From Escherichia phage VEc20, in the sequence record MN022785.1: DNA of 64,000 bases; one strand, 5' to 3'. Under the pieces are notes generated by a model. It did no database searches, was not told the origin of the DNA, and saw only the letters and a program-made list of their open reading frames with translations. A program made the translations under genes and the position numbers. Below, piece after piece: positions 22,414-39,625 of this stretch. Each line of letters starts with the position of its first letter. Within the stretch, counting starts at the first letter, position 1.

Positions 22414-23378
22414 TGTATTCTTTAGAGGAATTTAATAATCAAGCAATAAACGCAGATTTCCAACGTAATAATATGTTTAGCTGCGTTTTTGCAACAACTC
22501 CATCAACTAAAAGCTCTTCGTTGATAAGTTCAATTAGCAACTTTTCTTATAATAACTTGGGCCTAAATTCAGATTGGTTAGGATTAACTCAAGGTGATAT
22601 TAATCAGGGAATTACCACGCTAATTACAGCTGGCACACAAAAACTGATAAGAAAATCAGGGGTTAGTAAATATCTTATTGGTGCCATGAGTCAACGTACA
22701 GTTCAAAGTTTATTAGGCTCATTTACAGTTGGTACATATTTAATTGACTTCTTTAACATGGCATATAACTCATCTGGATTGATGATATATTCTGTAAAAA
22801 TGCCAGAGAACAGATTATCCTATGAAACTGACTGGAACTATAATTCTCCTAATATTCGTATAACCGGAAGAGAATTAGACCCTTTGGTTATTTCATTTAG
22901 AATGGATTCAGAAGCTTGTAACTATCGTGCAATGCAAGACTGGGTTAACTCTGTTCAAGACCCAGTAACTGGACTGCGTGCTTTGCCGCAAGATGTCGAG
23001 GCAGATATTCAGGTTAATCTTCATTCTCGCAATGGATTACCACATACTGCGGTGATGTTCACTGGATGCATTCCAGTGTCCGTAAGCGCTCCTGAGTTAT
23101 CATATGATGGAGATAACCAAATAACTACATTTGATGTTACTTTTGCGTATAGAGTGATGCAGGCTGGAGCAGTTGATAGACAAGCTGCCCTTGAATGGCT
23201 TGAATCTGCTACTATAAATGGTATTCAAAGCGTTCTCGGAAATAGTGGAGGTGTTACTGGACTATCTAATTCGCTTTCACGACTTAGTAGATTAGGGGGA
23301 ACTGCAGGAAGCATTTCAAACATTAATACTATGACAGGAATTGTCAATTCGCAAAGTAAAATATTAGGAGCAATATAA
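22413..23378 (+). CDS. 54: baseplate tail tube initiator
   Basis: 321 aa; synteny. Confidence 0.8.
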   Translation: MYSLEEFNNQAINADFQRNNMFSCVFATTPSTKSSSLISSISNFSYNNLGLNSDWLGLTQGDINQGITTLITAGTQKLIRKSGVSKYLIGAMSQRTVQSLLGSFTVGTYLIDFFNMAYNSSGLMIYSVKMPENRLSYETDWNYNSPNIRITGRELDPLVISFRMDSEACNYRAMQDWVNSVQDPVTGLRALPQDVEADIQVNLHSRNGLPHTAVMFTGCIPVSVSAPELSYDGDNQITTFDVTFAYRVMQAGAVDRQAALEWLESATINGIQSVLGNSGGVTGLSNSLSRLSRLGGTAGSISNINTMTGIVNSQSKILGAI

Positions 23379-23382
23379 CAAC

Positions 23383-23400
23383 GGGGACCTTTCGGTCCCC
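23383..23400. terminator. hairpin GGGGACC-TTTC-GGTCCCC between convergent gene 54 and alt operon
   Basis: perfect 7-bp stem followed by T-run. Confidence 0.5.
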
Positions 23401-23406
23401 ATATTT

Positions 23407-23697
23407 TTATTTGCGGAATGAAATGAAAGCAGAAACTGAAGCAACTAAACTGTCTTCAATATAAACTTCAATTTTTACCGGAGCTTCTGACTCAAATTTA
23501 CCTGTTACTACACCCTGAAAAATACTTTCAGTCTGTTCTGGCTTTGAAAAATTTTCAGAAGGAAAAATTCCGAACTTTTTATCTGTTCCAAAAATTTTAA
23601 TAAATTCATCGTAAACCGCTTCGTTAAAAGCATTATCAGCAGGAATAACGCCTTCAACTACAAGTTCTTGACCTAAAAAGCGTAAAGAAGATTTCAT
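23407..23697 (-). CDS. hypothetical protein (alt.-3-like position)
   Basis: 96-aa ORF; GAGGA about 6 nt upstream of ATG. Confidence 0.5.
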   Translation of the reverse strand: MKSSLRFLGQELVVEGVIPADNAFNEAVYDEFIKIFGTDKKFGIFPSENFSKPEQTESIFQGVVTGKFESEAPVKIEVYIEDSLVASVSAFISFRK

Positions 23698-23704
23698 TTT
23701 GTGT

Positions 23705-23758
23705 TCCTCATGTTATGTCAGTAAGACTACTATAACACAACACGAGGGACTTGTAAAC
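23705..23758 (-). repeat. copy A of a perfect 54-bp repeat carrying a sigma70-type early promoter and Shine-Dalgarno leader
   Basis: identical 54-mer also at 37981-38034; minus strand reads GTTTAC-18nt-TATAGT (TGn-extended) then GAGGA. Confidence 0.8.
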
Positions 23759-24115
23759 TACATTTTGAACTTTTTAGTACGCGGAATAGGCATGCGTCGA
23801 TTTTATACTGTTTCATTGTTTGAAGAGCAGTATCAAAAACAGCATTAATGACACCAATTGGATTTCCACTCAAGTTTTTAAGCTTAACTAATGATAGTTT
23901 CTCATTAACACCTATCATTACGATATGCATCATTTTATCGCCTGGTTTAACGTTTTATTTGTATCACCGTCAGAGGTGTATGTACAAAATCTAAATCCAG
24001 GAAGTACGCTTTCTTCACCGGCTTGAATAGCAAAAATTTGAGGTATTTTATGCTTAGGATTTAAGTTAACAACCGGCGCCGAAGCGCCGTCAAATAATTC
24101 TGTAATAAGTTCCAT
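23730..24115 (-). pseudogene. truncated, frameshifted paralog of the Alt N-terminal region (two ORFs of 61 and 67 aa)
   Basis: the two ORFs align to Alt residues about 1-60 and 64-120 but are in different frames, overlapping by 4 nt. Confidence 0.55.
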
Positions 24116-24118
24116 GAT

Positions 24119-26215
24119 TTATCCTTGAACGAACTTGTAAGGCATGTTTGTAATATCTATGCAAGACGCAATAATTCCAAGAGATGATTCGACTTTCTGT
24201 TTAACATTTGATGAAACAAATGATGCAAAATCAACTCTATCTTCTATTTCAATATCACCAGTCATTGCAACTACTTCACCAGTTTCCATTAGACGGTCAC
24301 CGTCATAAATTACTGATTCGGTGAGTTCTTCCGTAGTCATAACTTCAGCTTGAATGAGTTTTGTATTATTAGATGTTGTTCCGTCGTTATTAGAAGCATC
24401 AGTTATTTTATTGACTTTGACCATCAATCCACGCGGTAGAATAACTTCAGCTTCTGTTGCTATTCCGAGACTTCCTGGATATACAACATTAACTTTATGA
24501 GCTCCATCAATTGCCCATCCTATTTGAACTTTAACGTATTCAGGATTTTCTTTATACGCTCTTATTTCGTTTGGATTAATAGTTATTCCTTCTTCATTTT
24601 TATCAACTGTTAATTCATTGCGAGCTTCTGGTTCTAAAAGACCAATACCAGCATGTGTAATTCCAAAACGTCCAAAAATGATAGGAGTTAAAGAAGTAGA
24701 TACAAAATTTCTGAAATAGAATACTTTATTTTTAACTAGTGCTTCGTATATAGGAGCAGTCATACTTTGAGCACGATAAACTGTAATGCCTTCTGGTATA
24801 CGATCACCATTTTCAAAAGCAGAATCTAAATTAGTTATAGCAGCTTCAATTTCTTTTTCACTCATTACTTCATAACGTTCTGGATCATAACGACCCAAAA
24901 GAAGATTATTGATGTCAGTATATCCTGAACCGCAATACTCTCTAATGCCACGCTTTTGTGATGGAGTATATTTAGAACCATCACGGGCAATAGTAATATC
25001 AATCATTGGACCTGCACCAATTCCAGAGAAACTATAAATCATTCTTTTGAGGAATTTAGTTTTTGTCGCGTTCCAGGAATTTTTAGTTATTTCTTCCCAG
25101 ACTTCATCTGGCTGTCCTTTACGGGTTTTATTATGTTTATCAAGCCAAGTATCTTTATATTCTTCAAATAATTGATTAACAGCTGCTGCGTATTTCTCTA
25201 AACATTTTATTGAAGTAGTCGGTTCATTTTTAATCGCATTAAGAATTACATCTTTAATTTTTTCAGAAACTTCATTAACCTCACTTTTTGAAAAGAATTT
25301 ATAGTCATAATGAAGTTCATCTGCAGTTCCTTCGGCAATGATTTTTGCTGCCTTAGTTTTAGAAGCTAATGAATTAATTCCAATTTTCATTTCTTCTGCT
25401 TCGGGAATTAAAGGTGCAGTAGCTGGTTTATTAAAATTAGCTGCTGTAGATTCATACTTCTGGAATAATTCACTTTCAAATCTAGAAGACTCTAATGATT
25501 GACTTTGTGCAATTGCTCTACGGGAAATTTTAACTTTAACGATTACAGCTTGGTCAGAACGTTTATCATTTTCTTGTGCAATAGATGCTGCAATTGCCTC
25601 ATTTTTAGTTACTTGAGCTCCAGTATCTTTATTGATATAAACATCACCGACCTTCGATTCAACTTTAGTAAAGAGCTCGGTACTAATTTCCGGAACCCCT
25701 GGAATGTCTTCTAGTGATACATTTTTGCGATGTATAAGAATATATGCATACTTTTTATCATAATCCCAGAGTTCCTTAAGAAGGACGTATCTGCCACCTG
25801 AACGACTACGGATAAGTCTATCAGCAATAACTTGAATTTGTCGAGCTTGACCAGCAGTTTTAGACTTAAGAATACGGAGCATACAGGCATCAATTTTATA
25901 CTGACGCATTGTTTGCATTGCAACAGTAAAAACCGAATTGATATAATTAATTGGGCTTGGACCAAGACCTTTCAATTTAGCAATTGAACCTTTAGCGGTT
26001 AATGTAAAAGGAACAATATGCATCATTTTATCGCCCATCTTTAAATCACGATTAGTATCACCTCCAGATGTATAGGTACATAAACGAAAGCCTGGTTGTT
26101 CAATTGCATCATCAACATGAACTGAAAAAATTTGTGGTATTTTCTTCTTTGGATTTAAGTTTGTAATCGGAAGAGTAGTATCTTCGTCAAATAATTCTGT
26201 AATTAGTTCCATCAT
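24119..26215 (-). CDS. alt: Alt ADP-ribosyltransferase (virion-packaged)
   Basis: 698 aa; N-terminus MELITELF...; resembles T4 Alt from memory; synteny. Confidence 0.85.
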   Translation of the reverse strand: MMELITELFDEDTTLPITNLNPKKKIPQIFSVHVDDAIEQPGFRLCTYTSGGDTNRDLKMGDKMMHIVPFTLTAKGSIAKLKGLGPSPINYINSVFTVAMQTMRQYKIDACMLRILKSKTAGQARQIQVIADRLIRSRSGGRYVLLKELWDYDKKYAYILIHRKNVSLEDIPGVPEISTELFTKVESKVGDVYINKDTGAQVTKNEAIAASIAQENDKRSDQAVIVKVKISRRAIAQSQSLESSRFESELFQKYESTAANFNKPATAPLIPEAEEMKIGINSLASKTKAAKIIAEGTADELHYDYKFFSKSEVNEVSEKIKDVILNAIKNEPTTSIKCLEKYAAAVNQLFEEYKDTWLDKHNKTRKGQPDEVWEEITKNSWNATKTKFLKRMIYSFSGIGAGPMIDITIARDGSKYTPSQKRGIREYCGSGYTDINNLLLGRYDPERYEVMSEKEIEAAITNLDSAFENGDRIPEGITVYRAQSMTAPIYEALVKNKVFYFRNFVSTSLTPIIFGRFGITHAGIGLLEPEARNELTVDKNEEGITINPNEIRAYKENPEYVKVQIGWAIDGAHKVNVVYPGSLGIATEAEVILPRGLMVKVNKITDASNNDGTTSNNTKLIQAEVMTTEELTESVIYDGDRLMETGEVVAMTGDIEIEDRVDFASFVSSNVKQKVESSLGIIASCIDITNMPYKFVQG

Positions 26216-26250
26216 ATCCTCTCTAGTGTTTATTCTATTTATAAAATTAA

Positions 26251-26265
26251 AGGCCCGAAGGCCTT
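26251..26265 (-). terminator. GC hairpin AGGCC-CGAA-GGCCT
   Basis: seen in sequence. Confidence 0.35.
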
Positions 26266-26453
26266 TAGTAATCTAGTGGTAAGAGAGTACGATATATTTC
26301 AAACTTTGGTCCTTTTTCATAGGCATCAAATGTTTCTGTAAATTTATTATAAGCGTATGCATCTACAAATTCGAGAATGACTTGTGATACAGAAGTAGAA
26401 ACATCTCCACCTTCTTTTTGAGCAATGACAATTGTTTCTAAGTAAGCTTTCAT
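26265..26453 (-). CDS. hypothetical small protein
   Basis: 62-aa ORF; start overlaps ligase stop. Confidence 0.45.
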   Translation of the reverse strand: MKAYLETIVIAQKEGGDVSTSVSQVILEFVDAYAYNKFTETFDAYEKGPKFEIYRTLLPLDY

Positions 26454-27913
26454 AGACCAGTTACCTCATGAAAATCACCAAATACATCCTCGAATGTATT
26501 AGCTTTAGTTTTATCTTCACGTAAACGAATCGCAATCGGAAGAAATAATTTAACGTAATCAGTGCGGCCATCAGATTTTAACCAACCGTTGCATTCGCAC
26601 TCTAGAATTTTTCCAATATAATAATTTTGGTTTTCCATAATGCGAGTACGGTCAAGTTCATGTGATTTTACACCGGCTTTATCTTTTAAGCCTGAACCAG
26701 CATTTACCTTAATTTTTCCACACTCTGACTCAAGAATAAATCCACCCGCTTTAGTAGGGTCTTTACGGTGAGGATAAATTCCTACAATTTTTAAATCAAC
26801 ATCAATTACTTCTTTAAATTTATAGAGATTTTTTGAACGAGCATTTTCCCATAATCCATCGATATTTTTGAGAATAATACCTTCAAGACCTTGGTCAATA
26901 TACTTTTTATAAATTACCTTAGCTTCATCTAGGTTATTTACTACCTGGTTTTCAATTAAAATTACTTTATCATAGCCTGATGTCATTTGTTCTAGTTTAG
27001 AAAAACGTACATCATATTTTAAACGAAACGCCGGAAGACCGTATATTTCTACCAACGGGACATAATCCCAGACCTGAAACTTCATGCATTGAGCTTCTTT
27101 TTCGGAAATGGTTCCCTTTAAAGATTTATTAGCGATTCCATTAGAAGTAGTACGTGATTCAGCTACTTCGGCGAATTCTTTGGCTTTACTAATTTCAGGA
27201 TAAGCATCAAAAAGAAAATCTAGGCCTTCTGGCTCCTTTTTAACTTGCTCATGGTATACCAATTCGCCATCAATTAACACGCCTTCTGGATGAATCTGGC
27301 GGGCTTCAGCGGTCATTTTGATTAATTCTTCCTTAAGAAGATCTAATCCTAGATATTCATTACCGGCTCGTGATAAAAGACGAACATCATCTAATTCATC
27401 ACCTCTGACTTCGGCAAAGCACCGAGCCCCATCAGCTTTTAACTGGGCAAAGGCTGGAAATTTGATATTCTTATTAATGCCTTTTTCATCATAAGAACTT
27501 GCCAGCATTTGAGGTTGTTCAGGAATTAAACCTGGCCAAACTTTGTTTGCAATAGATACTGAAGCACCACATTCAAGGTCTCGCATCATCACTCGACGCA
27601 AAACTTCAACATCATCTTTTTTACCATCGGTGATATATCCAGTTAATTCCTCAATTGCTGCATTTCCAGTCAATTTCCGAGTAGCTAATGTGAATTCAAT
27701 GAAGTCAAGCATATCGGTAAGAGTCAACATTCCAAAACTCTGGGTAGCAATACCAGGTTTAGGCCATTTCTTGATATAATACTGCAGCCCACGAGAATAA
27801 GTCAGACGATATACTCGTTTAAGCAATTCATTATCTTTATTCTTTTCAAGAATTGCTTGCTTCTGCTTAGTTGAACCAATAGATGCTATTTCGTTCAGAA
27901 TTTTAAGAATCAT
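26450..27913 (-). CDS. 30: ATP-dependent DNA ligase
   Basis: 487 aa; adenylation motif KADGAR; N-terminus matches T4 ligase from memory. Confidence 0.9.
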   Translation of the reverse strand: MILKILNEIASIGSTKQKQAILEKNKDNELLKRVYRLTYSRGLQYYIKKWPKPGIATQSFGMLTLTDMLDFIEFTLATRKLTGNAAIEELTGYITDGKKDDVEVLRRVMMRDLECGASVSIANKVWPGLIPEQPQMLASSYDEKGINKNIKFPAFAQLKADGARCFAEVRGDELDDVRLLSRAGNEYLGLDLLKEELIKMTAEARQIHPEGVLIDGELVYHEQVKKEPEGLDFLFDAYPEISKAKEFAEVAESRTTSNGIANKSLKGTISEKEAQCMKFQVWDYVPLVEIYGLPAFRLKYDVRFSKLEQMTSGYDKVILIENQVVNNLDEAKVIYKKYIDQGLEGIILKNIDGLWENARSKNLYKFKEVIDVDLKIVGIYPHRKDPTKAGGFILESECGKIKVNAGSGLKDKAGVKSHELDRTRIMENQNYYIGKILECECNGWLKSDGRTDYVKLFLPIAIRLREDKTKANTFEDVFGDFHEVTGL

Positions 27914-28179
27914 TGTTCATCCTTCAGAGTTTGGTTTACAGCTCTATTATAAATCAATTCATCATTAAGCTCAGTCAAAGACTTATGATATGTGGTTCTA
28001 ACTTTATTTCCTTGCATCCAGTGCTTGATATAAATGAAACCTTGCTCTACGCATTTTTTAAAAATTCGTTCGTCTTTTTGAGCTCGGAATTCTGGATTGC
28101 ATCTAAAAAATTGATTTACGTGACCGTAATCACGTGTAGTATTACCTTCATTTTCATAAATAGTGTGAACAACAAACAT
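27910..28179 (-). CDS. hypothetical protein
   Basis: 89-aa ORF, overlapping stop/start with neighbours. Confidence 0.5.
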   Translation of the reverse strand: MFVVHTIYENEGNTTRDYGHVNQFFRCNPEFRAQKDERIFKKCVEQGFIYIKHWMQGNKVRTTYHKSLTELNDELIYNRAVNQTLKDEQ

Positions 28180-29018
28180 TAGAATGCTCCTTGGAAAATA
28201 TTATCACCACAAGTAGGTCTATTATACAAATACTCTATACCGCCGGGTTTAATATAGTTCCATGTCTGAAACGGATGTGTCTGATATGGATGATATAGAT
28301 GATTATAAGGATTAAATCCAGGAGTTCTCCAGGTAGTGTTCCAACGAAAAGAATCGTTTTTAATCATCTTTTCAATTACATCTTTTATAGCTTTTTCACT
28401 ATCAAAACTTTCTTTATTTTCCTTTGGTGAAAAAAGCTTATTCTCTACATCGTTCCATGTATAAACTCGCTGAGCAGTTTTTGGAATACTGTCACGTTCC
28501 CCTCGAGCCATCCAATAAACAGGAACACTTAATATTTCACTCGCGTGATCGCAGTGGTGAGCGAGATCGTCAATATAACAAATTACGTTATATTTCTCTT
28601 TTGCCTTTTTGAACAACTCTTCTTTTGAAGAATCATGACCACACATCAGTACTTCTGAGAAGGCACCAGGAAAAAGAGCATTCAAATTAAATTGACGATT
28701 CAGCAGAGCGTCAATAGAATCACCCAGCGCTGTAACAGCTACAAAATTATAATCTTCTTTTAATTTGTTAATTACACACAGAGCATCTTTATATGGAGAC
28801 AAGTAACGAATAAAATCTGAACGATTGTATTTTTCAATTAACTTGACACCAAGTTCTTCATCACAATTAAAAAGTTTACCAGGAGAAATAAATTTTTCAT
28901 CTTGGATCATTTTTAAAATATGTTCCAACGGAAGATTATATTTCTGAGCAAAATAAGGAAGGCCTGATTGCCAGCTTAAACACACTCCATCAATATCAGT
29001 TAAAATAGTAGGCTTCAT
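28179..29018 (-). CDS. HAD-superfamily phosphatase-like protein
   Basis: motif I ILTDIDGV near N-terminus and motif IV YIDD; 279 aa. Confidence 0.55.
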   Translation of the reverse strand: MKPTILTDIDGVCLSWQSGLPYFAQKYNLPLEHILKMIQDEKFISPGKLFNCDEELGVKLIEKYNRSDFIRYLSPYKDALCVINKLKEDYNFVAVTALGDSIDALLNRQFNLNALFPGAFSEVLMCGHDSSKEELFKKAKEKYNVICYIDDLAHHCDHASEILSVPVYWMARGERDSIPKTAQRVYTWNDVENKLFSPKENKESFDSEKAIKDVIEKMIKNDSFRWNTTWRTPGFNPYNHLYHPYQTHPFQTWNYIKPGGIEYLYNRPTCGDNIFQGAF

Positions 29019-29479
29019 AGAGAGTCTCTTAATAGGTTTAACACATCAATAAATTCAGCTTCGGTTAGTATTGTATCATCTTTTGTTAGACCACTAGCCA
29101 TGCTGTGCTTCAAAACTTTTCCTTTCGAGGCTTGTAACGCATCACGAAAGCCCTTGTTTTGGATCGCTGCTTCAAAATATGCATTTGTGTATAATTCTTT
29201 CCACGCCGGGGAGTATCTTGAAAATGGAACTCCAAGCCAGAAGAGGGTTCCACGGTCTTGAGCTCTTGCATAAGACCTTCCAGCTTGTTGGGCGGCAAGC
29301 CCGGATAACCCAAATATACGACGTTGTTGTTCAACGTTTTTCACCTTGCATCCTTGGAGGAATCCTTCAAGACCTCCAAATTGAATACCATCCATAACGA
29401 AAGGCCAATGGGCGAAATTACTTAATGCACATGATGGCCACCTAAAATTGCTTCTAATCTCTAACTCAGACATTTTCAA
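29015..29479 (-). CDS. NADAR (YbiA-like) domain protein
   Basis: ALSNFAHWPFVMDGIQFGGLEGFLQGCK resembles the NADAR/YbiA signature FSNFA.WP..DG....SEH.FQA.K. Confidence 0.55.
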   Translation of the reverse strand: MKMSELEIRSNFRWPSCALSNFAHWPFVMDGIQFGGLEGFLQGCKVKNVEQQRRIFGLSGLAAQQAGRSYARAQDRGTLFWLGVPFSRYSPAWKELYTNAYFEAAIQNKGFRDALQASKGKVLKHSMASGLTKDDTILTEAEFIDVLNLLRDSL

Positions 29480-29672
29480 TGCTTATAATTTCAACATCAG
29501 CCCAATGACCATAGCAAGGAAGACGAAATTCAACTGGCCAGTTAGGGTCCTTTTCTAATATAATAGACTCAACTCGTGGTTCTTCACGTTCATCAGTATA
29601 TGGATTTTTATCTGTTACTTTATATGTGACCTTAATGTACTGAATTCCAAAAATCTTATTAATTATATTCAT
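29466..29672 (-). CDS. hypothetical protein
   Basis: 68-aa ORF. Confidence 0.45.
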   Translation of the reverse strand: MNIINKIFGIQYIKVTYKVTDKNPYTDEREEPRVESIILEKDPNWPVEFRLPCYGHWADVEIISIENV

Positions 29673-29866
29673 ACTAATTCCTTTAATCCGTAGATAGGAG
29701 ATAATTCATCACCCATACGAAGGTCTTCATTTCCATCTACCCAGGAAACAATATAAGCCTCTTTTATTTGAATACCACTCCATTTAAATGGAGGTAGAAC
29801 CTTAGAAATTAATCCAGGTATACCAACTCCCTTTAATTCAACAGTTTGACCTAAAAAGAATTTCAT
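29669..29866 (-). CDS. hypothetical protein
   Basis: 65-aa ORF. Confidence 0.45.
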   Translation of the reverse strand: MKFFLGQTVELKGVGIPGLISKVLPPFKWSGIQIKEAYIVSWVDGNEDLRMGDELSPIYGLKELV

Positions 29867-30153
29867 TAGAACCTCATCTGAAAACCGTGCGATTTAACAT
29901 TACCGCCGCCAATATCAGAGATATTAATTTCGCGCGCAATTGAAGGGTCAATGTCAATTTCACGATTGAGTTTAGTGATAGCTAAAGTATCGCGCCCATT
30001 TACAGTACGAAACTCTAAAGGACAAACCACATCAACGTAGTTTTTAATCGATTCACTGGTAGGCTGCAAATGAGCAGGAAGGTCTTTAGGCGCCTTTGAG
30101 AAAACCACTTCACAGAAATTTTTGCGGGTATCAAAATAAGTAGTCATAAACAT
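29866..30153 (-). CDS. hypothetical protein
   Basis: 95-aa ORF. Confidence 0.5.
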   Translation of the reverse strand: MFMTTYFDTRKNFCEVVFSKAPKDLPAHLQPTSESIKNYVDVVCPLEFRTVNGRDTLAITKLNREIDIDPSIAREINISDIGGGNVKSHGFQMRF

Positions 30154-30170
30154 AGTATTTTCCTCAGTAA

Positions 30171-30185
30171 GGGGCCGAAGCCCCT
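30171..30185 (-). terminator. GC hairpin GGGGC-CGAA-GCCCC
   Basis: seen in sequence. Confidence 0.35.
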
Positions 30186-30194
30186 CATTTTATT

Positions 30195-30572
30195 TTAAAT
30201 ATCAAATTCGTTAAGAACTACATCAAAGATTGCTTCAAGATGCTCAGGTTTAGCTCTGTTACTCAGAATATGACGAATCCAAGTTTTAACCAGAAGCTTG
30301 CGATTAACGCCATTCCAGCAAGGATGAGTCCCTAAATCGCGTTGACGAAAATCATCATCCAAAGCAATTTTGAAGTTGGAACCTTCCATTGTGATTGAAA
30401 CCGTGATGCCATTTTCAAATCGCATATAAACGTAGTTAGGAGTCATATACTGTTCAATTTCGCATACTGATCCATTTTGATGTTTCCAAAGGCAGATGGT
30501 ATCAATAGAACCTGCAATACCATTAGAAACATATTTACGTTCAAAGTTAATGTAGTTCATTTTATTCTCCAA
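30195..30572 (-). CDS. hypothetical protein
   Basis: 125-aa ORF. Confidence 0.5.
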   Translation of the reverse strand: MENKMNYINFERKYVSNGIAGSIDTICLWKHQNGSVCEIEQYMTPNYVYMRFENGITVSITMEGSNFKIALDDDFRQRDLGTHPCWNGVNRKLLVKTWIRHILSNRAKPEHLEAIFDVVLNEFDI

Positions 30573-30627
30573 GATGTTTAATTGCGGTACAGGTATATAA
30601 TATCATGTCCTGTACCAAAGTAAACAA

Positions 30628-30960
30628 TTATTTTACTACTTTCCAATGCTGCATGTCAAGTTTACCAACTTTTTTCATCTTCTCAATTAAGCGTTCGGCA
30701 CGTTGGCGAGCTGTAACATAATACCATTCACCTAATTCATTTTGTTCAATTTTTCCAACGATTACTGTATTCAATTCATAAATCCAACCAGTAAAGAAAT
30801 TATGAACTTGAATTGTAAAGGTGAAATCTGTTCCCATACCTTCTGTTGTTTCTACTTCAATAATATCACCTTCAACTGCCATTAAGAACCACATAGTTTC
30901 ATCATATTTACCATTGAAGCATTTAGTTTTAACTGCAGCGTTCAGATTAATCGTTTTCAT
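30628..30960 (-). CDS. hypothetical protein
   Basis: 110-aa ORF. Confidence 0.5.
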   Translation of the reverse strand: MKTINLNAAVKTKCFNGKYDETMWFLMAVEGDIIEVETTEGMGTDFTFTIQVHNFFTGWIYELNTVIVGKIEQNELGEWYYVTARQRAERLIEKMKKVGKLDMQHWKVVK

Positions 30961-31046
30961 TTTATTCTCCTTTGTTTGTGTAAGATAATACTATCACAAA
31001 GGAACCATACTGTAAACAACTTTATGCAATCTTTGGAAAATAAAAA

Positions 31047-31066
31047 AGGACTCCCGAAGGAGTCCT
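31047..31066 (-). terminator. hairpin AGGACTCC-CGAA-GGAGTCCT
   Basis: perfect 8-bp stem. Confidence 0.4.
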
Positions 31067-31070
31067 CAAC

Positions 31071-31289
31071 TTATGCTTTCTGCTTACCAAAACGAGAAGC
31101 ATCATCTCGAAGAACCGCACGTGCTCGGCGCATGATCTTCTCAACAGTTTGATTGATACGAGAGTTCGACCCACGCTTGTAGCCAGCGCGTTTAGAATCA
31201 CCAACTTTCTTTTCAACTGCTTTCTTTGCTTTAGCTTGTTTTGCCATTATAAATTCTCTTTTAAATGAAAATGCAGGACTTATTGGCAT
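31071..31289 (-). CDS. small basic protein (likely start at internal ATG, MAKQAKAKK...)
   Basis: K/R-rich 58-72 aa ORF. Confidence 0.4.
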   Translation of the reverse strand: MPISPAFSFKREFIMAKQAKAKKAVEKKVGDSKRAGYKRGSNSRINQTVEKIMRRARAVLRDDASRFGKQKA

Positions 31290-31645
31290 TGCCTGCGCAA
31301 GCCCTCAAGGGGAACATAGGTTTTTGGATATTTAACGACCAGGATAACCATAAACCCGTCATCATACCTTATAGCTCTTATCTGTTGCACACCGTTAGCT
31401 TAAAGGTTCCGGGTTCGATTTCTCGAGGATAAGATATATACTGATGGATATATAGGCCTTGAGGCGTACTCCCGATTGGCCATCACCTCGGGGTAGCATG
31501 CACTTGCCGCTATAAGAATAACATTCAAGAGGTACACCGTAAAACTGCCGGGGTCTTAAAACTATAATGATTCGCAAATCATTAATCAGACAGTTCGACG
31601 GCTCCTCGATTTTAGCTCACACTAAGGCAGTGAATCTCCAGTAAA

Positions 31646-31894
31646 TTACTTCAGTGTTACCACAAAGTGACGAACTGCTTTTCGTGCAGCAGAAGCCAAA
31701 GGCTTAGCATATTTAAGTTCATCTTTTTCCTGAAGCTCAGCAGCTAATGCAGTTTGAGCAGGATTCAGATGTTTGAAATAACGCAGGATTTCAAGAGCTT
31801 CGGCTTCAACATCAATAGATGCGCCATAGTTTTCGTGACCATTATTCCATGCGTTTCGTTGCAGTTCAAGAGCGTGTTGTAATTGTTTAATCAT
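31646..31894 (-). CDS. rIII: probable RIII lysis-inhibition accessory protein
   Basis: 82 aa, immediately downstream of gene 31 on the same strand as in T4; length matches T4 RIII from memory. Confidence 0.55.
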   Translation of the reverse strand: MIKQLQHALELQRNAWNNGHENYGASIDVEAEALEILRYFKHLNPAQTALAAELQEKDELKYAKPLASAARKAVRHFVVTLK

Positions 31895-32041
31895 TTAAAA
31901 ATTCTCGTTAGAGATTAAAACTCGGTAGTCACGTTCTTCTGAATTTCATCTTCTTTCGACAGATCTCTCAGTTGTAGACTACCACATAGAATTGTTCGGT
32001 TAACTTATTATTCCGACACCCAATTCATATTATTATTTATA

Positions 32042-32377
32042 TCACTTATAAAGACACGGAATAGCTTTATAGTGACAGGTAACAAATTTTTGTTTAATTT
32101 CTTTTGGCTGCTTAAGACCCAGAGCTACAAAAGGATGCGGAACATTTCGAATTTGACCAACTGGGAGAGAAGTCAAATCACCAACTTCGCAGAAACCTTC
32201 AGGAACATCAGGACCGACAGAGTGAATTACACACAGTTCAGGAACTTCACCTTGAACACGTTTACCGATAATAAGTCCTGATTCTGTAACTTCTTCATCA
32301 CCGGCTTGTGAAGGTTCAGAAACTAAAATAACATATTCACCGACAGCGCGAATTGGTAGCTGTTGTACTTCAGACAT
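32042..32377 (-). CDS. 31: GroES-like co-chaperonin for capsid protein folding
   Basis: 111 aa; [22 protein letters not shown]... matches T4 gp31 from memory. Confidence 0.9.
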
Positions 32378-32433
32378 CGTTTTTCCTTTTTGTTAACAGA
32401 TGAGTTAATAATAACAAATAATTCTTAAAGCAT

Positions 32434-32742
32434 TTATTTACCAATAAATTGGAGCAAATGCTCAACTTTCATACCATTAACAGAAATCAATTTGTCAATA
32501 GAAAAACCTCGCCAAGCGCCAAGTTCAACATCAAATACTGGAATCATATCCGTAGATTCTTTCCGAGTAGATTCAGTCAATTTACCGGTTTGCATGGTTG
32601 GCATAAAGTCTGCATCACGAGTACCTTTCATAGTACGAATAGTACCATCAGACTTTTCAAAAACTACGTTTGAAACACCCATGGACAATTTAGTTTTCAA
32701 AATTTCACGAATTGCTACTTTCTGCTCAGTTGTTAGTTTCAT
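32434..32742 (-). CDS. hypothetical protein
   Basis: 102-aa ORF. Confidence 0.5.
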   Translation of the reverse strand: MKLTTEQKVAIREILKTKLSMGVSNVVFEKSDGTIRTMKGTRDADFMPTMQTGKLTESTRKESTDMIPVFDVELGAWRGFSIDKLISVNGMKVEHLLQFIGK

Positions 32743-32979
32743 TTATTTACCTATCACAGTTTTAATATGAGTTGTTCCACGTTCTTTAAGGGTGGAAAGT
32801 AATTTTTGGCATTTTTCTAAATCAGATTTCCAACTATGTGGTCTATCAATACAAACCCAGTTTGACTTATAATACTGCTTCCATTTAGAGAAAAAATACT
32901 TCTTATACTCTACAGCAAATGAAATGTTCTCGTTGGAATAAGAACTAATTGCTGTGAGCTGTACCAAACGAAATTTCAT
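32743..32979 (-). CDS. hypothetical protein
   Basis: 78-aa ORF. Confidence 0.45.
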   Translation of the reverse strand: MKFRLVQLTAISSYSNENISFAVEYKKYFFSKWKQYYKSNWVCIDRPHSWKSDLEKCQKLLSTLKERGTTHIKTVIGK

Positions 32980-33560
32980 TATTCACCACAGAATTCGTTG
33001 ATATTTTCCCAGTTTAACTTATTCAAGTTTTTCTTAGGAACATTAAACACTTCAATACCTGCATTTCGCAGAATATCATCCCAGCCAGGTTTATTTTTAT
33101 CGTATGTTTCACAATAAACCAGCTTTTTAATTCCAGATTGAGCTATCGCTTTTGCGCAATCTGGACATGGAGAAAGTGTTACATACATAGTAGCACCTTC
33201 AATAGAAGAACCATTTCGTGCAGCAAACAAAATTGCATTTAGTTCAGCATGAATTTCATTTTTAGATGACCATTCCGAGTGAGCACTACGATGTTCTTTC
33301 GCCAAGACAAAACGATCAGTTGAACCAAATGATACACATTCGGGCTTATGGCCTTGAATGATAGTGTGTTTAGGCTTATTCAACAACCAACCTTGCTCAG
33401 CAGCATAATCACAGCAATTTACTCCACCTGCGGGTGAACCATTATACCCAGTAGAAATAATACGTCCATTCTTTTCAATTACTGCTCCTACCTTCCAGGA
33501 ACAACATTTTGATTCCTGCGATACTAAATATGCAATTTGAAGTACTGTACTCGCTTTCAT
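32979..33560 (-). CDS. cd: dCMP deaminase
   Basis: 193 aa; zinc-binding motifs HAE and PCxxC (SPCPDCAKAI). Confidence 0.9.
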   Translation of the reverse strand: MKASTVLQIAYLVSQESKCCSWKVGAVIEKNGRIISTGYNGSPAGGVNCCDYAAEQGWLLNKPKHTIIQGHKPECVSFGSTDRFVLAKEHRSAHSEWSSKNEIHAELNAILFAARNGSSIEGATMYVTLSPCPDCAKAIAQSGIKKLVYCETYDKNKPGWDDILRNAGIEVFNVPKKNLNKLNWENINEFCGE

Positions 33561-33895
33561 TTCATAATCACCAGATAAGCAGATTTAGCAGTTTCAACAC
33601 GATAAATTTCGTGACGAAGTTTAGTTATACTTTTAATAACAGAACTAATTATATTCTGCCCATCTTTAAAGCGGTTTTTCTTATCAATAAAAACTGCGCC
33701 AGTCATCTTTTTGTGAAGCTCAACTGGATACTTCGTCACAATAATAGCATCATACACAGAAGGATGAATACTATTCACCAGAGTATCATTCATTAAAGTT
33801 ATTCTAATGAACTGTGCTGTTTCAGAATCAAGCGCTCTATGATCGCCAGTATCATTTTCAAGACAATTATCAATTATATCAGTTAAATTCATCAT
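33557..33895 (-). CDS. hypothetical protein
   Basis: 112-aa ORF. Confidence 0.5.
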   Translation of the reverse strand: MMNLTDIIDNCLENDTGDHRALDSETAQFIRITLMNDTLVNSIHPSVYDAIIVTKYPVELHKKMTGAVFIDKKNRFKDGQNIISSVIKSITKLRHEIYRVETAKSAYLVIMK

Positions 33896-34128
33896 AGTAC
33901 GCCATACACCCTTTGTGCTTCAACTAATCCATCAAAATCCAGTTTAAGATGCGATATTTGATCGCCATCACCTGGATTCACAATTACTAATACTGAACGA
34001 GGAGTTTCGGTAATAACACGAACCGATGTTTCAGGAAATCGTTCAGAAACCTTATTTACCAATTCCTGAGCAAATAGTTTAACTTTTTCTTGGAATTCTT
34101 TAACAGTAATTGGTTTTTCACTTAGCAT
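33892..34128 (-). CDS. hypothetical protein
   Basis: 78-aa ORF. Confidence 0.45.
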   Translation of the reverse strand: MLSEKPITVKEFQEKVKLFAQELVNKVSERFPETSVRVITETPRSVLVIVNPGDGDQISHLKLDFDGLVEAQRVYGVL

Positions 34129-34649: not shown

Positions 34650-34711
34650 TTCAATTTCCTCATTTGTTTTGGTAGAGCTATAATATCACAACTCTACCGT
34701 AAAGTAAACTA

Positions 34712-35017
34712 TTAAATTGCTTTGAATTCTGATGTCTGTGATTCAAAGCGAATATCGCCTTTGATGACTAGCTCAGCATCAAGACCGAATACAACAATGA
34801 TATGCGCTGAACCTGGATACAACGTGATGGCAACAGAATCCACCTGGTCTGGAAGCAAAGTATTCAATACATGAGTCACTTGAGCGTGGATTCGAAGTTC
34901 AGCTGCATTATCAAGCTTTTCAAACATGTTATTAGCGATAATTTGGCTAAACACTACTTCTACGATTTTAGAGTAAGTCGGAAACATATTTACCTCACAT
35001 AATTTTCTTCGAGCCAA
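34712..35017 (-). CDS. hypothetical protein
   Basis: 101-aa ORF. Confidence 0.45.
   Translation of the reverse strand: MARRKLCEVNMFPTYSKIVEVVFSQIIANNMFEKLDNAAELRIHAQVTHVLNTLLPDQVDSVAITLYPGSAHIIVVFGLDAELVIKGDIRFESQTSEFKAI

Positions 35018-35379: not shown

Positions 35380-35380
<1 letters not shown>
35183..35380 (-). CDS. hypothetical protein
   Basis: 65-aa ORF. Confidence 0.4.
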
Positions 35381-36605: not shown

Positions 36606-36608
36606 TTA

Positions 36609-37129: not shown

Positions 37130-37479
37130 TTAGAAAGGTCCTGGATGTCTTCTGCGAACTTGTTGAAGGAGTTGTTGATTTGTTTTTCAACCAATCCTGG
37201 CTTATGAGCCACCACATCCGCCTTCTTTGCGTCTTTGCGCAGTTTTTCATTTTCACGCTCAATAGCAGCAATTGCCTCACGATTTTTATTATTCATCGCA
37301 TCAATATAATTATACTGAATTCGCAAATTGTTTAATGCTAAAGCGTTTTCATTGGCCGTTTTTGTAATTTCTACAACAGACGTTTCTAATCTTTCAATTT
37401 TATTTTTTAAAATTAAAGAAGTTCCGCCCAATGCAATTACAATTAATAGCAAACCTGTTGTCGTATTACTTAATTGCAT
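37126..37479 (-). CDS. predicted membrane-anchored coiled-coil protein
   Basis: single N-terminal hydrophobic helix GLLLIVIALGGTSLIL, then charged helical region. Confidence 0.5.
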   Translation of the reverse strand: MQLSNTTTGLLLIVIALGGTSLILKNKIERLETSVVEITKTANENALALNNLRIQYNYIDAMNNKNREAIAAIERENEKLRKDAKKADVVAHKPGLVEKQINNSFNKFAEDIQDLSK

Positions 37480-37976
37480 AAAGTTTTAATAACCTCTATA
37501 ATATCGTCTTGAGAAAGACCGTTAATTAAAATATGATGTTCCGCCGGAGATTTAGAAATTTTAAAGCATGCCGCAACATCTTCTGCCATATCTGATGCAC
37601 TACGATTTGGATTACTAATCCCAAGGCGGTGTTTTCCCGTTAAAGGATTAACGATGATATAGCATTTACAGTTGTTAATATGAACATTAGGTTGAGTCTG
37701 ATTAATGAACACATCACAATCATATTTCGCAAGCTGATTTTCTAAAAAGACTTTCATCTCCTCAACCGCATCAGGAAGCATATCACGGGCTTGCTCAAGA
37801 CGACGATTTCGATATTCTTTAATGGTCGTTTTCCGCTTGACTTGCTTAGCTAAATCTTTCTTAAGATCGGTGATATATCCAACTCGACGATTTCCTTTGA
37901 ATACAGAAATCCCATCTGTAGTATCACCGTATGCTTCAACGACCATTTCAGTAGTAATAAGTTGTAAATCCATCAT
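37470..37976 (-). CDS. alc: probable Alc (inhibitor of host transcription elongation)
   Basis: about 167 aa, immediately downstream of rnlA as in T4. Confidence 0.65.
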   Translation of the reverse strand: MMDLQLITTEMVVEAYGDTTDGISVFKGNRRVGYITDLKKDLAKQVKRKTTIKEYRNRRLEQARDMLPDAVEEMKVFLENQLAKYDCDVFINQTQPNVHINNCKCYIIVNPLTGKHRLGISNPNRSASDMAEDVAACFKISKSPAEHHILINGLSQDDIIEVIKTLCN

Positions 37977-37980: not shown

Positions 37981-38034
37981 TCCTCATGTTATGTCAGTAA
38001 GACTACTATAACACAACACGAGGGACTTGTAAAC
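37981..38034 (-). repeat. copy B of the perfect 54-bp promoter/leader repeat
   Basis: identical to 23705-23758; GAGGA 4 nt upstream of alc ATG. Confidence 0.8.

Positions 38035-38037: not shown

Positions 38038-39625
<1,588 letters not shown>

What the first reader, a model, noticed from the sequence alone, without database searches (positions are those of the whole stretch)
23705..23758. Perfect 54-bp promoter/leader cassette present twice (23705-23758 and 37981-38034), resembling mobile PeSL-type regulatory elements
The 54-mer TCCTCATGTTATGTCAGTAAGACTACTATAACACAACACGAGGGACTTGTAAAC occurs identically 14.3 kb apart, both times at a gene junction just upstream of a minus-strand start codon (alt.-3-like ORF; alc). 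Read on the minus strand it is GTTTAC-18 nt-TGnTATAGT followed by GAGGA, a complete sigma70-type early promoter with ribosome-binding leader. It also has internal inverted symmetry (CCTCATG/CACGAGG, TGTTAT/ATAACA). Copy A overlaps the 3' end of a truncated alt paralog, consistent with insertion. Intergenic identity over 54 bp is unexpected unless the unit is recently duplicated or mobile; promoter-early stem-loop cassettes have been proposed to drive modular shuffling in T4-type phages.
Basis: partly seen in the sequence, partly recalled or inferred. Interest (0 to 1): 0.7.

Follow-up and report, generated by a model that had tools for sequence, protein, structure and literature searches.

The report
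Duplicated T4 early promoter-hairpin cassette
A 54-base early promoter-plus-leader unit sits in front of two genes (alc and alt.-3) of a T4-like phage. It is a fixed, genus-wide feature, not a mobile element, and it seems built so that only RNA started at its own promoter exposes the ribosome-binding site.

Summary
Two exact 54-nt copies lie at 23705-23758 and 37981-38034 (minus strand), upstream of alt.-3 and alc, in a Tequatrovirus about 98% identical to T4.

Each copy is a strong sigma70 early promoter (GTTTACA-17 nt-TGtTATAGT) with a leader and SD. Spacer nt 12-26 pair with leader+SD nt 39-53. RNA reading through from upstream folds into a -23/-24 kcal/mol hairpin that buries the SD. RNA started at the cassette's own promoter begins in the loop and is unstructured.

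At alc, this complementarity persists with different sequences in at least 10 other T4-like lineages (cognate -18.6 vs swapped -9.6 kcal/mol, p<1e-5). The architecture fits published PeSL elements (stem-loop overlapping -10). It resembles the T4 e/soc/49/I-TevI hairpins, but with an early promoter.

It is not mobile. In 499 Tequatrovirus records there are 997 copies. All 15 genomes examined, T4 included, carry them at these two junctions. No copy was found elsewhere.

Outgroups show that alt.-3 originally had a different promoter, which the alc cassette overwrote in the genus ancestor. The copies now differ by 0-5 nt and are identical in 3 of 15 genomes. The alt paralog was truncated by a separate 1,699-bp deletion, not by cassette insertion. 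Novelty is modest.

The parts
23705..23758 (-). Copy A of the 54-nt cassette (promoter + leader + SD), upstream of alt.-3
   Evidence: Exact match. Same position in all Tequatrovirus genomes sampled.
37981..38034 (-). Copy B of the 54-nt cassette, between rnlA and alc
   Evidence: Exact match. Same position in T4 and relatives.
23752..23758 (-). Copy A -35 element GTTTACA (T4 early-promoter type)
23729..23737 (-). Copy A extended -10: TG-T-TATAGT
   Evidence: TTTACA-17-TATAGT, TG present.
23722..23722 (-). Copy A predicted transcription start (A, 7 nt after -10). It lies in the hairpin loop.
   Evidence: Inferred from promoter geometry. Not measured.
23733..23747 (-). Copy A 5' arm of the hairpin (cassette nt 12-26; promoter spacer plus first 2 nt of -10)
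   Evidence: -23.0 kcal/mol, z -4.07, 0 of 200 shuffles as stable.
23706..23720 (-). Copy A 3' arm of the hairpin (nt 39-53; leader plus SD GAGG)
23705..23709 (-). Copy A Shine-Dalgarno GAGGA, 7 nt before the alt.-3 ATG (23695-23697)
23407..23697 (-). alt.-3 (96 aa), the gene served by copy A
   Evidence: Early RNA and early protein in T4.
38028..38034 (-). Copy B -35 element GTTTACA
38005..38013 (-). Copy B extended -10: TG-T-TATAGT
37998..37998 (-). Copy B predicted transcription start
   Evidence: Inferred. RNA from this base onward is unstructured (-1.8 kcal/mol, z -0.4).
38009..38023 (-). Copy B 5' arm of the hairpin
   Evidence: -24.4 kcal/mol, z -4.61, 0 of 200 shuffles as stable.
37982..37996 (-). 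Copy B 3' arm of the hairpin, including the SD
37470..37976 (-). alc (inhibitor of host transcription), the gene served by copy B. The start annotated in T4 corresponds to the second ATG, at 37971-37973.
   Evidence: Early RNA and early protein in T4.
38038..39198 (-). rnlA (RNA ligase 1), source of read-through RNA into copy B. Its stop codon is at 38038-38040, 3 nt before the -35.
   Evidence: No terminator-like site lies between rnlA and alc.
23730..24115 (-). alt.-1/alt.-2, the remnant of a second alt gene. The alt.-2 frame runs into copy A and stops at the TAG inside TATAGT.
23769..23777 (-). Junction of the 1,699-bp deletion in the alt paralog (9-bp microhomology CTAAAAAGT)
   Evidence: blastn against the intact paralog of phage SH7.

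Best explanation
The 54-nt unit is a self-contained T4-type immediate-early expression cassette of the PeSL kind. It holds a strong sigma70 promoter (GTTTACA, 17-nt spacer, TG-extended TATAGT), a predicted start at nt 37, a short leader and the SD GAGGA.

How it most likely works: the promoter spacer (nt 12-26) is complementary to the leader+SD (nt 39-53). RNA that enters from upstream (from rnlA, or from the alt paralog) contains both arms. It folds into a 15-bp hairpin that hides the SD, so alc and alt.-3 are poorly translated from long transcripts. RNA polymerase starting at the cassette's own promoter begins in the loop, the 5' arm is missing, and the SD is free. Protein output is therefore tied to the early promoter. 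It is on within the first minutes and stops when early promoters shut off. The same hairpin may also attenuate or stabilise the upstream RNA.

Origin: the cassette is native to the rnlA-alc junction. In the ancestor of Tequatrovirus a copy overwrote the different native alt.-3 promoter. This probably happened by short-patch ectopic gene conversion whose ends fell in the blocks that both promoters already shared (GTTTACA and ATGAGGA), which would explain the sharp 54-nt edges. Since then the two copies have drifted by 0-5 nt under selection that keeps the stem.

Shown here: sequence anatomy, fold energies, covariation, distribution, and outgroup states.

Inferred: the start site, translational masking in vivo, and the conversion mechanism.
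For: Promoter:
- Motif match at both copies.
- alc and alt.-3 are early RNA and early protein in T4. Upstream rnlA is early RNA with late protein, and alt.-1/-2 are middle RNA.

Hairpin:
- Read-through RNA folds at -24.4 kcal/mol (z -4.6) and -23.0 kcal/mol (z -4.1), with 0 of 200 dinucleotide shuffles as stable. RNA from the predicted start folds at only -1.8 kcal/mol (z -0.4).
- alc loci of other genera have the same design with different sequences, for example CTCCATTTGGTT/AACCAAATGGAG, ATCCTCATTTTGTTG/CAACAAAATGAGGAT, AACCTCTCATTTT/AAAATGAGAGGTT and CCTCGTTTGTT/AACAAACGAGG, with z -3.5 to -7.
- Alignment-free covariation test: cognate spacer-leader duplexes average -18.6 kcal/mol, swapped ones -9.6 (sd 3.9). 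Permutation p<1e-5. The cognate leader is the best partner in 10 of 12 lineages.
- Within Tequatrovirus, variation clusters in the loop (27C, 29A, 32A, 33A, 34A). Most stem changes keep pairing: G16.U49 to A-U; C15-G50 to U.G to U-A; U25.G40 to U-A. All variants fold at -19.6 to -27.9 kcal/mol.
- In T4 the sense RNA is much more stable than the antisense (-24.4 vs -15.4). The same holds for 7 of 8 other early-promoter hairpins. This points to an RNA-level structure.

Precedents: T4 e, soc, 49 and I-TevI, and PeSL stem-loops overlapping -10.

Origin:
- All non-Tequatrovirus alt.-3 promoters examined (15 loci, 6 distinct sequences) carry a small spacer palindrome and a free SD.
- The cassette spacer is 65-79% identical to alc-class spacers and 44-58% identical to alt.-3-class spacers (Mann-Whitney p=0.004).
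- The JS98 alc spacer pairs with the Tequatrovirus leader at -22 kcal/mol.
- The flanks at alt.-3 are orthologous with JS98 right up to GTTTAC and again from GAGGA onward.
- An independent exchange between the same two promoters is seen in a Dhakavirus-like contig.
Against: - No transcript 5' ends or translation data specific to long versus short RNAs were available. The start site and the masking are predictions.
- In some lineages (L034/L051, L042), and at several other T4 early promoters, the hairpin ends just 5' of the SD instead of covering it. SD masking therefore cannot be the universal role of these hairpins.
- Across genera there is no sense/antisense stability asymmetry (15 of 31, p=0.32), so an RNA-level structure is not proven outside T4.
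- In T4-type genomes the alt.-2 reading frame runs through the 5' arm of copy A. If alt.-2 is translated, ribosomes could open the hairpin.
- Overall identity of the cassette to outgroup alc and alt.-3 promoters is similar (76% vs 73%). The direction of transfer rests on the spacer and on the structural class.
Confidence: 0.6

Rival explanations
1. A mobile PeSL regulatory cassette, recently duplicated or transposed, that drives modular shuffling of neighbouring genes and truncated the alt paralog on insertion.
For: - PeSL architecture is met.
- Copy A adjoins an indel, the alt paralog being intact or truncated.
- Promoter-to-promoter exchange has occurred at least twice: in the Tequatrovirus ancestor, and in the chimera.
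Against: - 997 places in 499 records, about 2 per genome.
- In all 15 genomes examined the copies sit at the same two junctions with conserved flanks.
- No third copy and no variable position were seen. There are no hits in other genera or in E. coli.
- The flanking genes are the same in sister genera, which already have promoters at both junctions. A promoter was replaced; nothing was inserted and no gene was shuffled.
- The paralog truncation is an unrelated 1,699-bp microhomology deletion.
Confidence: 0.07
2. The hairpin is chiefly a transcription terminator or attenuator, or a 3'-end stabiliser, for RNA coming from upstream. This is the function proposed for PeSL stem-loops. It would insulate alc and alt.-3 transcriptionally rather than translationally.
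For: - Arbiol et al. showed that one RB49 PeSL stem-loop lowers downstream lacZ expression as strongly as rrnB T1.
- Hairpins at several T4 early promoters, and at L034/L042 alc promoters, do not include the SD.
- This role is not exclusive of SD masking.
Against: - No U-tract follows the stem at either copy (GGACUUUAUGAUGG; GGAACACAAAAUG).
- The terminator scan found nothing at either copy.
- In 10 of the 12 lineages tested, the 3' arm is positioned on the SD itself.
Confidence: 0.2
3. The inverted repeat acts at the DNA level. It would be either an operator for a dimeric phage or host protein, or a cruciform that modulates promoter opening.
For: - The dyad symmetry is centred on the -10/start region.
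- Across genera the stems are mostly perfect Watson-Crick and equally stable on both strands.
- How T4 early promoters are shut off is not fully understood.
Against: - Arm sequences differ completely between lineages while complementarity is kept. This is the signature of base pairing, not of a protein recognition sequence.
- In T4 three G.U pairs make the sense RNA 9 kcal/mol more stable than the antisense, and on DNA they would be mismatches.
- Loop lengths of 12-20 nt are unfavourable for cruciform extrusion (general knowledge).
Confidence: 0.08
4. There are simply two ordinary conserved promoters. Their identity is a by-product of a single old duplication in a genus with low divergence, and the hairpin is incidental.
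For: - The copies differ by a mean of about 1.9 nt (3.5%), similar to ordinary within-genus divergence, and are identical in only 3 of 15 genomes.
- No ongoing homogenisation is needed to explain the data.
Against: - The hairpin is statistically strong.
- It covaries across genera.
- Substitutions within the genus avoid or compensate stem positions.
Confidence: 0.05

Closest known systems
PeSL (promoter-early stem-loop) cassettes of T4-type phages (Arbiol et al. 2010, PMC2839356; Comeau et al. 2014, PMC4122927)
   Same: - Sigma70-like early promoter matching the PST/T4 consensus TTTACW-N17-TAYWAT.
- A stable stem-loop overlapping the -10 box, one of the two commonest published positions.
- SD and start codon at the 3' end.
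- Belongs to a dispersed family of related promoters. Exchange between family members has occurred.
   Different: - Only two copies, at fixed junctions between conserved genes in every genome examined.
- No gene gain, loss or swap is associated with it, and no mini-circle evidence exists.
- The stem is not the G-run/C-run type, and it covers the SD.
- The papers interpret the stem-loop as a terminator/attenuator. The main text of Arbiol 2010 does not mention translation.
- I could not see their figures, so I cannot say whether these two T4/PST sites are in their lists.
T4 RBS-sequestering hairpins with an internal promoter: genes e, soc, 49, I-TevI (reviewed in Uzan & Miller 2010, PMC3014915)
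   Same: - Long transcripts from upstream fold so that the SD is paired.
- A promoter sits within the 5' part of the structure, so its own transcripts lack the inhibitory arm and are translatable.
- Conserved in related phages.
   Different: - Those cases use late (gp55) promoters to delay translation until late infection.
- Here the internal promoter is an early sigma70 promoter, so the logic is reversed: translation is restricted to the earliest transcripts.
- Repression has been shown experimentally for e and I-TevI, but not here.
Repeated early-promoter sequences flanking the internal-protein (IP) loci of T-even phages (Repoila et al. 1994, as cited in PMC2839356 and PMC4122927)
   Same: Conserved T4 early-promoter-based repeats in T-even genomes that act as patches of homology for recombination.
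   Different: - Those repeats flank highly variable genes and are credited with shuffling them.
- The alc and alt.-3 copies flank conserved genes 14.3 kb apart, with essential genes between them, so only non-crossover exchange is viable.
- The original paper was not available to me.

Membership tests
PeSL cassette | Sigma70-like early promoter (PST/T4 type TTTACW-N17-TAYWAT) | tested here: met
   TTTACA-17-TATAGT with TG at both copies. Consensus taken.
PeSL cassette | Stable stem-loop associated with the promoter (between -35 and -10, overlapping -35 or -10, or adjacent) | tested here: met
   A 15-bp stem, nt 12-26 with 39-53, spans -10 and the start site. Energies are -23/-24 kcal/mol, z about -4 to -4.6. 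Subclass definition.
PeSL cassette | AT-rich tract upstream of -35 | tested here: inconclusive
   The alc copy is preceded by TTTTTGAAAAATTATAAAAAATTTAT inside rnlA. The alt.-3 copy is preceded by CTAAAAAGTTCAAAATGTA. Both are AT-rich, but they lie outside the repeat and are unrelated to each other.
PeSL cassette | SD and start codon of the downstream gene at the 3' end | tested here: met
   GAGGA, then ATG after 4-7 nt (alc) or 7 nt (alt.-3).
PeSL cassette | Preferential location in hyperplastic regions, next to indels or replacements between close relatives | tested here: not met
   Both junctions and their flanking genes are conserved across Tequatrovirus and four sister genera. The one nearby indel, in the alt paralog, has microhomology endpoints unrelated to the cassette.
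PeSL cassette | Mediates recombination (modular shuffling, mini-circles) | tested here: inconclusive
   No shuffling of neighbouring genes was seen. Promoter-to-promoter replacement is inferred in the Tequatrovirus ancestor and in a Dhakavirus-like contig. Mini-circle formation is not testable with these tools.
PeSL cassette | Stem-loop acts as a terminator/attenuator | not testable with these tools
   There is no U-tract and no hit in the terminator scan. Function needs experiment.
T4 promoter-in-hairpin translational control (e/soc/49/I-TevI type) | SD and/or AUG paired in a helix on upstream-initiated RNA | tested here: met
   GAGG (nt 50-53) is paired in the minimum-energy and centroid structures of both copies, also within 141-nt contexts.
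T4 promoter-in-hairpin translational control (e/soc/49/I-TevI type) | Proximal promoter placed so that its transcripts lack the 5' arm | tested here: met
   By geometry, -10 is at nt 25-30 and the predicted +1 at nt 37, in the loop. RNA from +1 folds at -1.8 kcal/mol. The start site is predicted, not measured.
T4 promoter-in-hairpin translational control (e/soc/49/I-TevI type) | The proximal promoter is a late (TATAAATA, gp55) promoter | tested here: not met
   The promoter is an early sigma70 type. The genes are early in RNA and protein. The cassette works like this class but is not a member in the strict sense.
T4 promoter-in-hairpin translational control (e/soc/49/I-TevI type) | Demonstrated repression of translation on long transcripts | not testable with these tools
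   Needs reporter or ribosome-profiling experiments.
Intrinsic (Rho-independent) terminator | G+C-rich stem followed by a U-run | tested here: not met
   The scan found no terminator-like site at either copy. The sequences after the stem are CUUUAUGAUGG and ACACAAAAUG.
Mobile element (MITE-like or transposed cassette) | Variable copy number or position among close relatives, with target-site features | tested here: not met
   About two copies per genome in 499 records, all in Tequatrovirus and none elsewhere. The same two junctions are used in all 15 genomes examined.
Rfam RNA families | Match to a curated covariance model | tested here: not met
   No family matched either copy at E<=1 over window 22500-39500.

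The most novel reading that the evidence does not exclude
The cassette may be the clearest example of a general and so far undescribed rule in T4-type phages. Most early promoters would be built inside RNA hairpins (5' arm in the -35/-10 spacer, 3' arm in the leader/SD). These would silence or insulate the downstream cistron on read-through RNA, so that synthesis of immediate-early proteins is hard-wired to promoter-proximal transcripts and ends when early promoters shut off. Such cassettes would replace one another by short-patch gene conversion. In T4, 10 of 18 canonical early promoters show such a hairpin. If true, this would give a sequence-level basis for the classical immediate-early versus delayed-early distinction.
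Probability: 0.3. Interest if true: 0.6.

Novelty: new member of a known kind. Interest (0 to 1): 0.38.

Why it matters
As given, the finding is largely explained. It is a genus-wide, fixed pair of PeSL-type early promoters that T4 itself carries, not a jumping element.

Three points are of some value:
- Outgroups give a clean, datable example of one promoter overwriting another 14 kb away, with the tract ends in shared -35 and SD blocks.
- There is strong cross-genus covariation showing that the alc early promoter is embedded in a hairpin that covers its own ribosome-binding site. This suggests a way to restrict Alc (host-transcription shut-off) and Alt.-3 synthesis to the first minutes of infection.
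- The same design appears at about half of T4's canonical early promoters. The PeSL literature read these stem-loops as terminators.

These points are directly testable in the best-studied phage, using simple reporter and 5'-end mapping experiments.

Tried and rejected
- Homology beyond the 54 nt. A faint resemblance of the first codons of alt.-3 and alc (ELVVEG / EMVVEAYG) is not significant, so it was dropped.
- A degenerate IUPAC scan of viral contigs for cassette variants returned 0, although an exact sub-pattern gave 6.
- MAFFT plus RNAalifold on 16 alc promoters gave no structure because the arms were misaligned. I replaced it with an alignment-free test of cognate versus swapped duplexes.
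- Sense versus antisense stability across genera showed no asymmetry. Only the T4 set is informative.
- Whole-cassette identity to outgroup promoters does not resolve the donor locus (76% vs 73%). The spacer alone and the structural class do.
- Rfam gave nothing at either copy.
- Host origin: no match in 5,426 E. coli genomes.
- Literature: Miller et al. 2003 and Repoila et al. 1994 are not held. No T4 5'-end map was found. The PeSL 2014 supplements are not held. I therefore cannot say whether these two sites, or the two-copy repeat, were noted before.
- T4 RefSeq annotates no promoter at either site. Phage Lutter carries computational promoter features at both.
- Intrinsic terminator and RNase III-site readings were considered. 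There is no U-run, and the 15-bp stem with wobbles is short for RNase III (the latter from general knowledge, not tested).
Full report
OBSERVATION

The 54-mer TCCTCATGTTATGTCAGTAAGACTACTATAACACAACACGAGGGACTTGTAAAC occurs exactly twice in the window, at 23705-23758 and 37981-38034. No shuffled control gave a match. It is the only long exact non-coding repeat in the 64 kb.

The window is a Tequatrovirus, about 98% identical to T4. Copy A lies between the alt.-2 ORF and alt.-3. Copy B lies between rnlA and alc. All these genes are on the minus strand.

On the minus strand the unit reads GTTTACAAGTCCCTCGTGTTGTGTTATAGTAGTCTTACTGACATAACATGAGGA. I number it 1-54 from the first G. The consensus scan calls both copies TTTACA-17-TATAGT with a TG extended -10.

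The repeat edges are sharp, and the flanks are statistically unrelated.

The identity is far beyond promoter consensus. Among 24 canonical T4 early-type promoters the median pairwise identity over 54 nt is 46% and the 95th percentile is 57%. This pair is 98% identical in T4 and 100% here.

DISTRIBUTION

T4 itself has both copies at the same junctions. Its alc copy matches 54/54 and its alt.-3 copy 53/54.

A blastn search of the 54-mer against 50,697 phage records found 499 records and 997 places. That is essentially two per genome. All are Tequatrovirus, and there are no hits elsewhere. There was no match in 5,426 E. coli genomes.

In all 15 genomes where I extracted both copies, they sit at the same two junctions with the same flanks. 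The copies are identical to each other in only 3 of these 15 and differ by 1-5 nt in the rest, a mean of about 1.9 nt or 3.5%.

THE ALT PARALOG

Many Tequatrovirus genomes (T6, SH7 and others) have an intact second alt gene. Its TAG stop overlaps the G of GTTTAC.

The window and T4 carry a 1,699-bp internal deletion of that gene between 9-bp repeats (CTAAAAAGT; junction at 23769-23777). The deletion keeps the gene's last 19 nt.

The cassette therefore did not truncate the paralog. The overlap of the alt.-2 frame with the cassette is a by-product of the frameshift.

ANATOMY AND LIKELY MECHANISM

Nt 12-26 (the promoter spacer plus the first two bases of -10) are complementary to nt 39-53 (the leader plus the SD GAGG). 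This gives 15 pairs, three of them G.U. The loop, nt 27-38, holds the rest of -10 and the predicted start at A37.

RNA that contains the whole cassette folds strongly:
- alc copy: -24.4 kcal/mol, z -4.6
- alt.-3 copy: -23.0 kcal/mol, z -4.1
- none of 200 dinucleotide shuffles is as stable

The hairpin persists in 141-nt contexts. RNA starting at the predicted +1 folds at only -1.8 kcal/mol, z -0.4.

Read-through RNA from rnlA or from the alt paralog should therefore have the SD buried. RNA from the cassette's own promoter should have it free. No terminator-like site lies at either copy or between rnlA and alc, so read-through is expected.

Published T4 time-resolved omics fit this picture. They class alc and alt.-3 as early RNA and early protein, rnlA as early RNA with late protein, and alt.-1/-2 as middle RNA. 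This is consistent, but not decisive.

COVARIATION

I collected 41 alc loci from T4-like viral contigs, plus annotated loci from Gaprivervirus VR7, Dhakavirus JS98, Mosigvirus JK42 and Karamvirus KaAlpha.

Nearly all have GTTTACA-spacer-TAnnAT upstream of alc. In most lineages the spacer is complementary to the leader/SD, with quite different sequences:
- CTCCATTTGGTT / AACCAAATGGAG
- ATCCTCATTTTGTTG / CAACAAAATGAGGAT
- ATCCTCATCAG / CTGATGAGGAT
- CTCCTCAG / CTGAGGAG
- AACCTCTCATTTT / AAAATGAGAGGTT
- CCTCTCGTTTTTG / CAAAAACGAGAGG
- CCTCGTTTGTT / AACAAACGAGG

The z-scores run from -3.5 to -7.

MAFFT misaligned the arms, so I used an alignment-free test. Each lineage's spacer was paired with its own leader, and then with the leaders of other lineages:
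- cognate pairs average -18.6 kcal/mol
- swapped pairs average -9.6 kcal/mol (sd 3.9)
- permutation p<1e-5
- the cognate leader is the best partner in 10 of 12 lineages

Within Tequatrovirus, substitutions concentrate in the loop. Most stem changes keep or improve pairing: G.U to A-U at nt 16, C-G to U.G to U-A at 15/50, and U.G to U-A at nt 40. There are three exceptions (16T, 40T, 12A). All variants fold at -19.6 to -27.9 kcal/mol.

In T4 the sense RNA is 9 kcal/mol more stable than the antisense. The same holds for 7 of 8 other early-promoter hairpins. That favours an RNA structure over a DNA one. Across other genera the stems are mostly perfect and show no strand asymmetry (15 of 31, p=0.32).

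CAVEATS

In two alc lineages (L034/L051 and L042), and at several other T4 early promoters, the hairpin ends just 5' of the SD. SD masking therefore cannot be its only role.

Some lineages lack the long hairpin at alc: Mosigvirus-like, L053/L055, VR7-like, L052, L038 and Ac42.

ORIGIN OF THE SECOND COPY

Sister genera already have early promoters at both junctions, but the two differ from each other.

All 15 alt.-3 loci from non-Tequatrovirus contigs (6 distinct promoter sequences) carry only a small covarying palindrome inside the spacer, and their SD is free, with z between -1.7 and +0.6. The palindromes are:
- CCACA-AGGA-TGTGG
- GCAC-AAGGAA-GTGC
- CACA-TGGA-TGTG
- TCCAC-ATGGAA-GTGGA
- GCACA-TGGAAG-TGTGT

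Only Tequatrovirus has the long-hairpin cassette at alt.-3.

Three results point to alc as the donor:
- The cassette spacer is 65-79% identical to alc-class spacers and 44-58% identical to alt.-3-class spacers (p=0.004).
- The JS98 alc spacer pairs with the Tequatrovirus leader at -22 kcal/mol.
- At the alt.-3 locus the flanks remain orthologous with JS98 right up to GTTTAC (...TTCAAAATGTAG) and again from GAGGA onward (...AACAAAATGAAATC).

The simplest reading is that, in the genus ancestor, the alc cassette overwrote the native alt.-3 promoter. The tract ends fell in the blocks both promoters already shared (GTTTACA and ATGAGGA), which explains the sharp 54-nt edges.

The two copies are direct repeats 14.3 kb apart, with ligase and gene 31 between them. 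Only non-crossover exchange would be viable (inference).

An independent exchange between the same two promoters is visible in a Dhakavirus-like contig. Its alc promoter is alc-type up to -10. It is then 30/31 identical to its own alt.-3 leader through the ATG, after which it resumes alc coding.

The present 0-5 nt difference between copies matches ordinary within-genus divergence, so ongoing homogenisation is not required. Shared variants (16A and 27C at both loci) hint at it but do not prove it.

COMPARISON WITH KNOWN SYSTEMS

Arbiol et al. 2010 define PeSLs as follows:
- a sigma70-like early promoter
- an AT-rich upstream tract
- a stable stem-loop whose commonest positions are between -35 and -10 or overlapping -10
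- an SD and ATG at the 3' end

Comeau et al. 2014 give TTTACW-N17-TAYWAT as the promoter consensus for PST/T4.

The cassette meets these architectural criteria. It does not show the behaviour that gives PeSLs their interest, namely location in hyperplastic regions, association with gene swaps, and mini-circles.

Those authors read the stem-loop as a terminator/attenuator. The main text of the 2010 paper does not mention translation.

Functionally, the closest precedent is the T4 e/soc/49/I-TevI design. There the SD is paired on long early transcripts, and a late promoter inside the 5' arm makes translatable RNA. Here the internal promoter is early, which inverts the timing logic. The cassette therefore works like that class without being a strict member.

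It is not an intrinsic terminator, because there is no U-run. It is not a known Rfam family, and it is not a mobile element.

GENERALITY

A scan of the whole T4 genome found 18 canonical early promoters that are followed by an SD, an ATG and an ORF. Ten of them have a significant hairpin spanning -10 and the start site (z <= -3.4). The alc cassette is the strongest.

A second, older paralogous pair (72% identical) shows compensatory stem changes.

The 54-mer is thus the most extreme and the only near-identical member of a family design.

VERDICT

- The promoter/leader and PeSL-like reading is supported.
- Mobility, recent duplication and insertion into the alt paralog are not supported.
- The best explanation is an insulated immediate-early expression cassette native to alc, copied over the alt.-3 promoter in the Tequatrovirus ancestor. 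Confidence is about 0.6 for the translational-gating step and higher for the promoter identity and the origin.
- Novelty is modest. It is a new member of a known kind, with a testable twist on the role of PeSL stem-loops.

Noticed in passing
T4 genome OZ035787.1 (L057-L060), minus strand; e.g. promoters at 93375, 135562, 130754, 138556, 37204, 143116: 10 of 18 canonical T4 early promoters have a significant hairpin (z <= -3.4). Its 5' arm lies in the -35/-10 spacer and its 3' arm in the initial transcribed region. Some cover the SD and others stop just before it.
   Followed up: partly
OZ035787.1 minus strand, 130754 and 93375: A second, older pair of paralogous early-promoter cassettes, 72% identical over 54 nt, with compensatory stem changes (GTTGACAAGATTA/TAATCTTGTCAAC vs GCTGACAAGACTA/TAGTCTTGTCGGT).
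   Followed up: partly
L039 about 640-700 (alc locus) and L066 about 440-500 (alt.-3 locus), contig IMGVR_UViG_2706795356_000001: A Dhakavirus-like phage whose alc promoter is chimeric. The 5' half is alc-type. The leader through the ATG is 30/31 identical to its own alt.-3 leader. This is an independent exchange between the same two promoters.
   Followed up: yes
L013:1142-1198, L012:2105-2168, L014:965-1022, L015:3302-3360; also T4 OZ035787.1 promoters at 123737 and 75235: A small covarying palindrome inside the promoter spacer (for example CCACA-AGGA-TGTGG, GCAC-AAGGAA-GTGC, CACCA-AGGA-TGGTG). It recurs at alt.-3 promoters of sister genera and at two other T4 early promoters. It lies wholly upstream of the start site, and its role is unknown.
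   Followed up: partly
L014:965-1022 and L014:14331-14391 (Mosigvirus JK42): In Mosigvirus the alc and alt.-3 promoters are both of the spacer-palindrome class and are 81% identical to each other. This may be homogenisation in the opposite direction to Tequatrovirus.
   Followed up: partly
window 23769-23777 (junction); remnant 23730-24115: The second alt gene was truncated by a 1,699-bp deletion between 9-bp direct repeats CTAAAAAGT. Many Tequatrovirus genomes keep the intact 685-aa paralog.
   Followed up: yes
L012:17011-17320 (VR7) and L025/L026/L054: VR7-type phages have an extra small ORF (ORF243c, an alc N-terminal duplicate) between rnlA and alc. It is preceded by GGGG-TGTACAAG-CCCC plus a T-run, a terminator-like hairpin whose loop holds the -35.
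   Followed up: no
window 11127-11702: A tandem duplication of a 288-nt unit at 79% identity (repeat family D1).
   Followed up: no
window 23381-23402: A bidirectional terminator-like hairpin (GGGGACC-TTTC-GGTCCCC) between the convergent genes 54 and alt.-3.
   Followed up: no
window 38042-38056: A small stem-loop (UAUCC-CAGAA-GGAUA) in the last codons of rnlA, just upstream of copy B. It is not part of the repeat and is absent upstream of copy A.
   Followed up: no
Tequatrovirus alt.-3 copies in L009, L010, L063, L088: The alt.-3 copy has a second common haplotype (11T, 15T, 16A, or a subset) that strengthens the hairpin to between -24.1 and -27.9 kcal/mol. Variants 16A and 27C occur at both loci in different phages.
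   Followed up: partly
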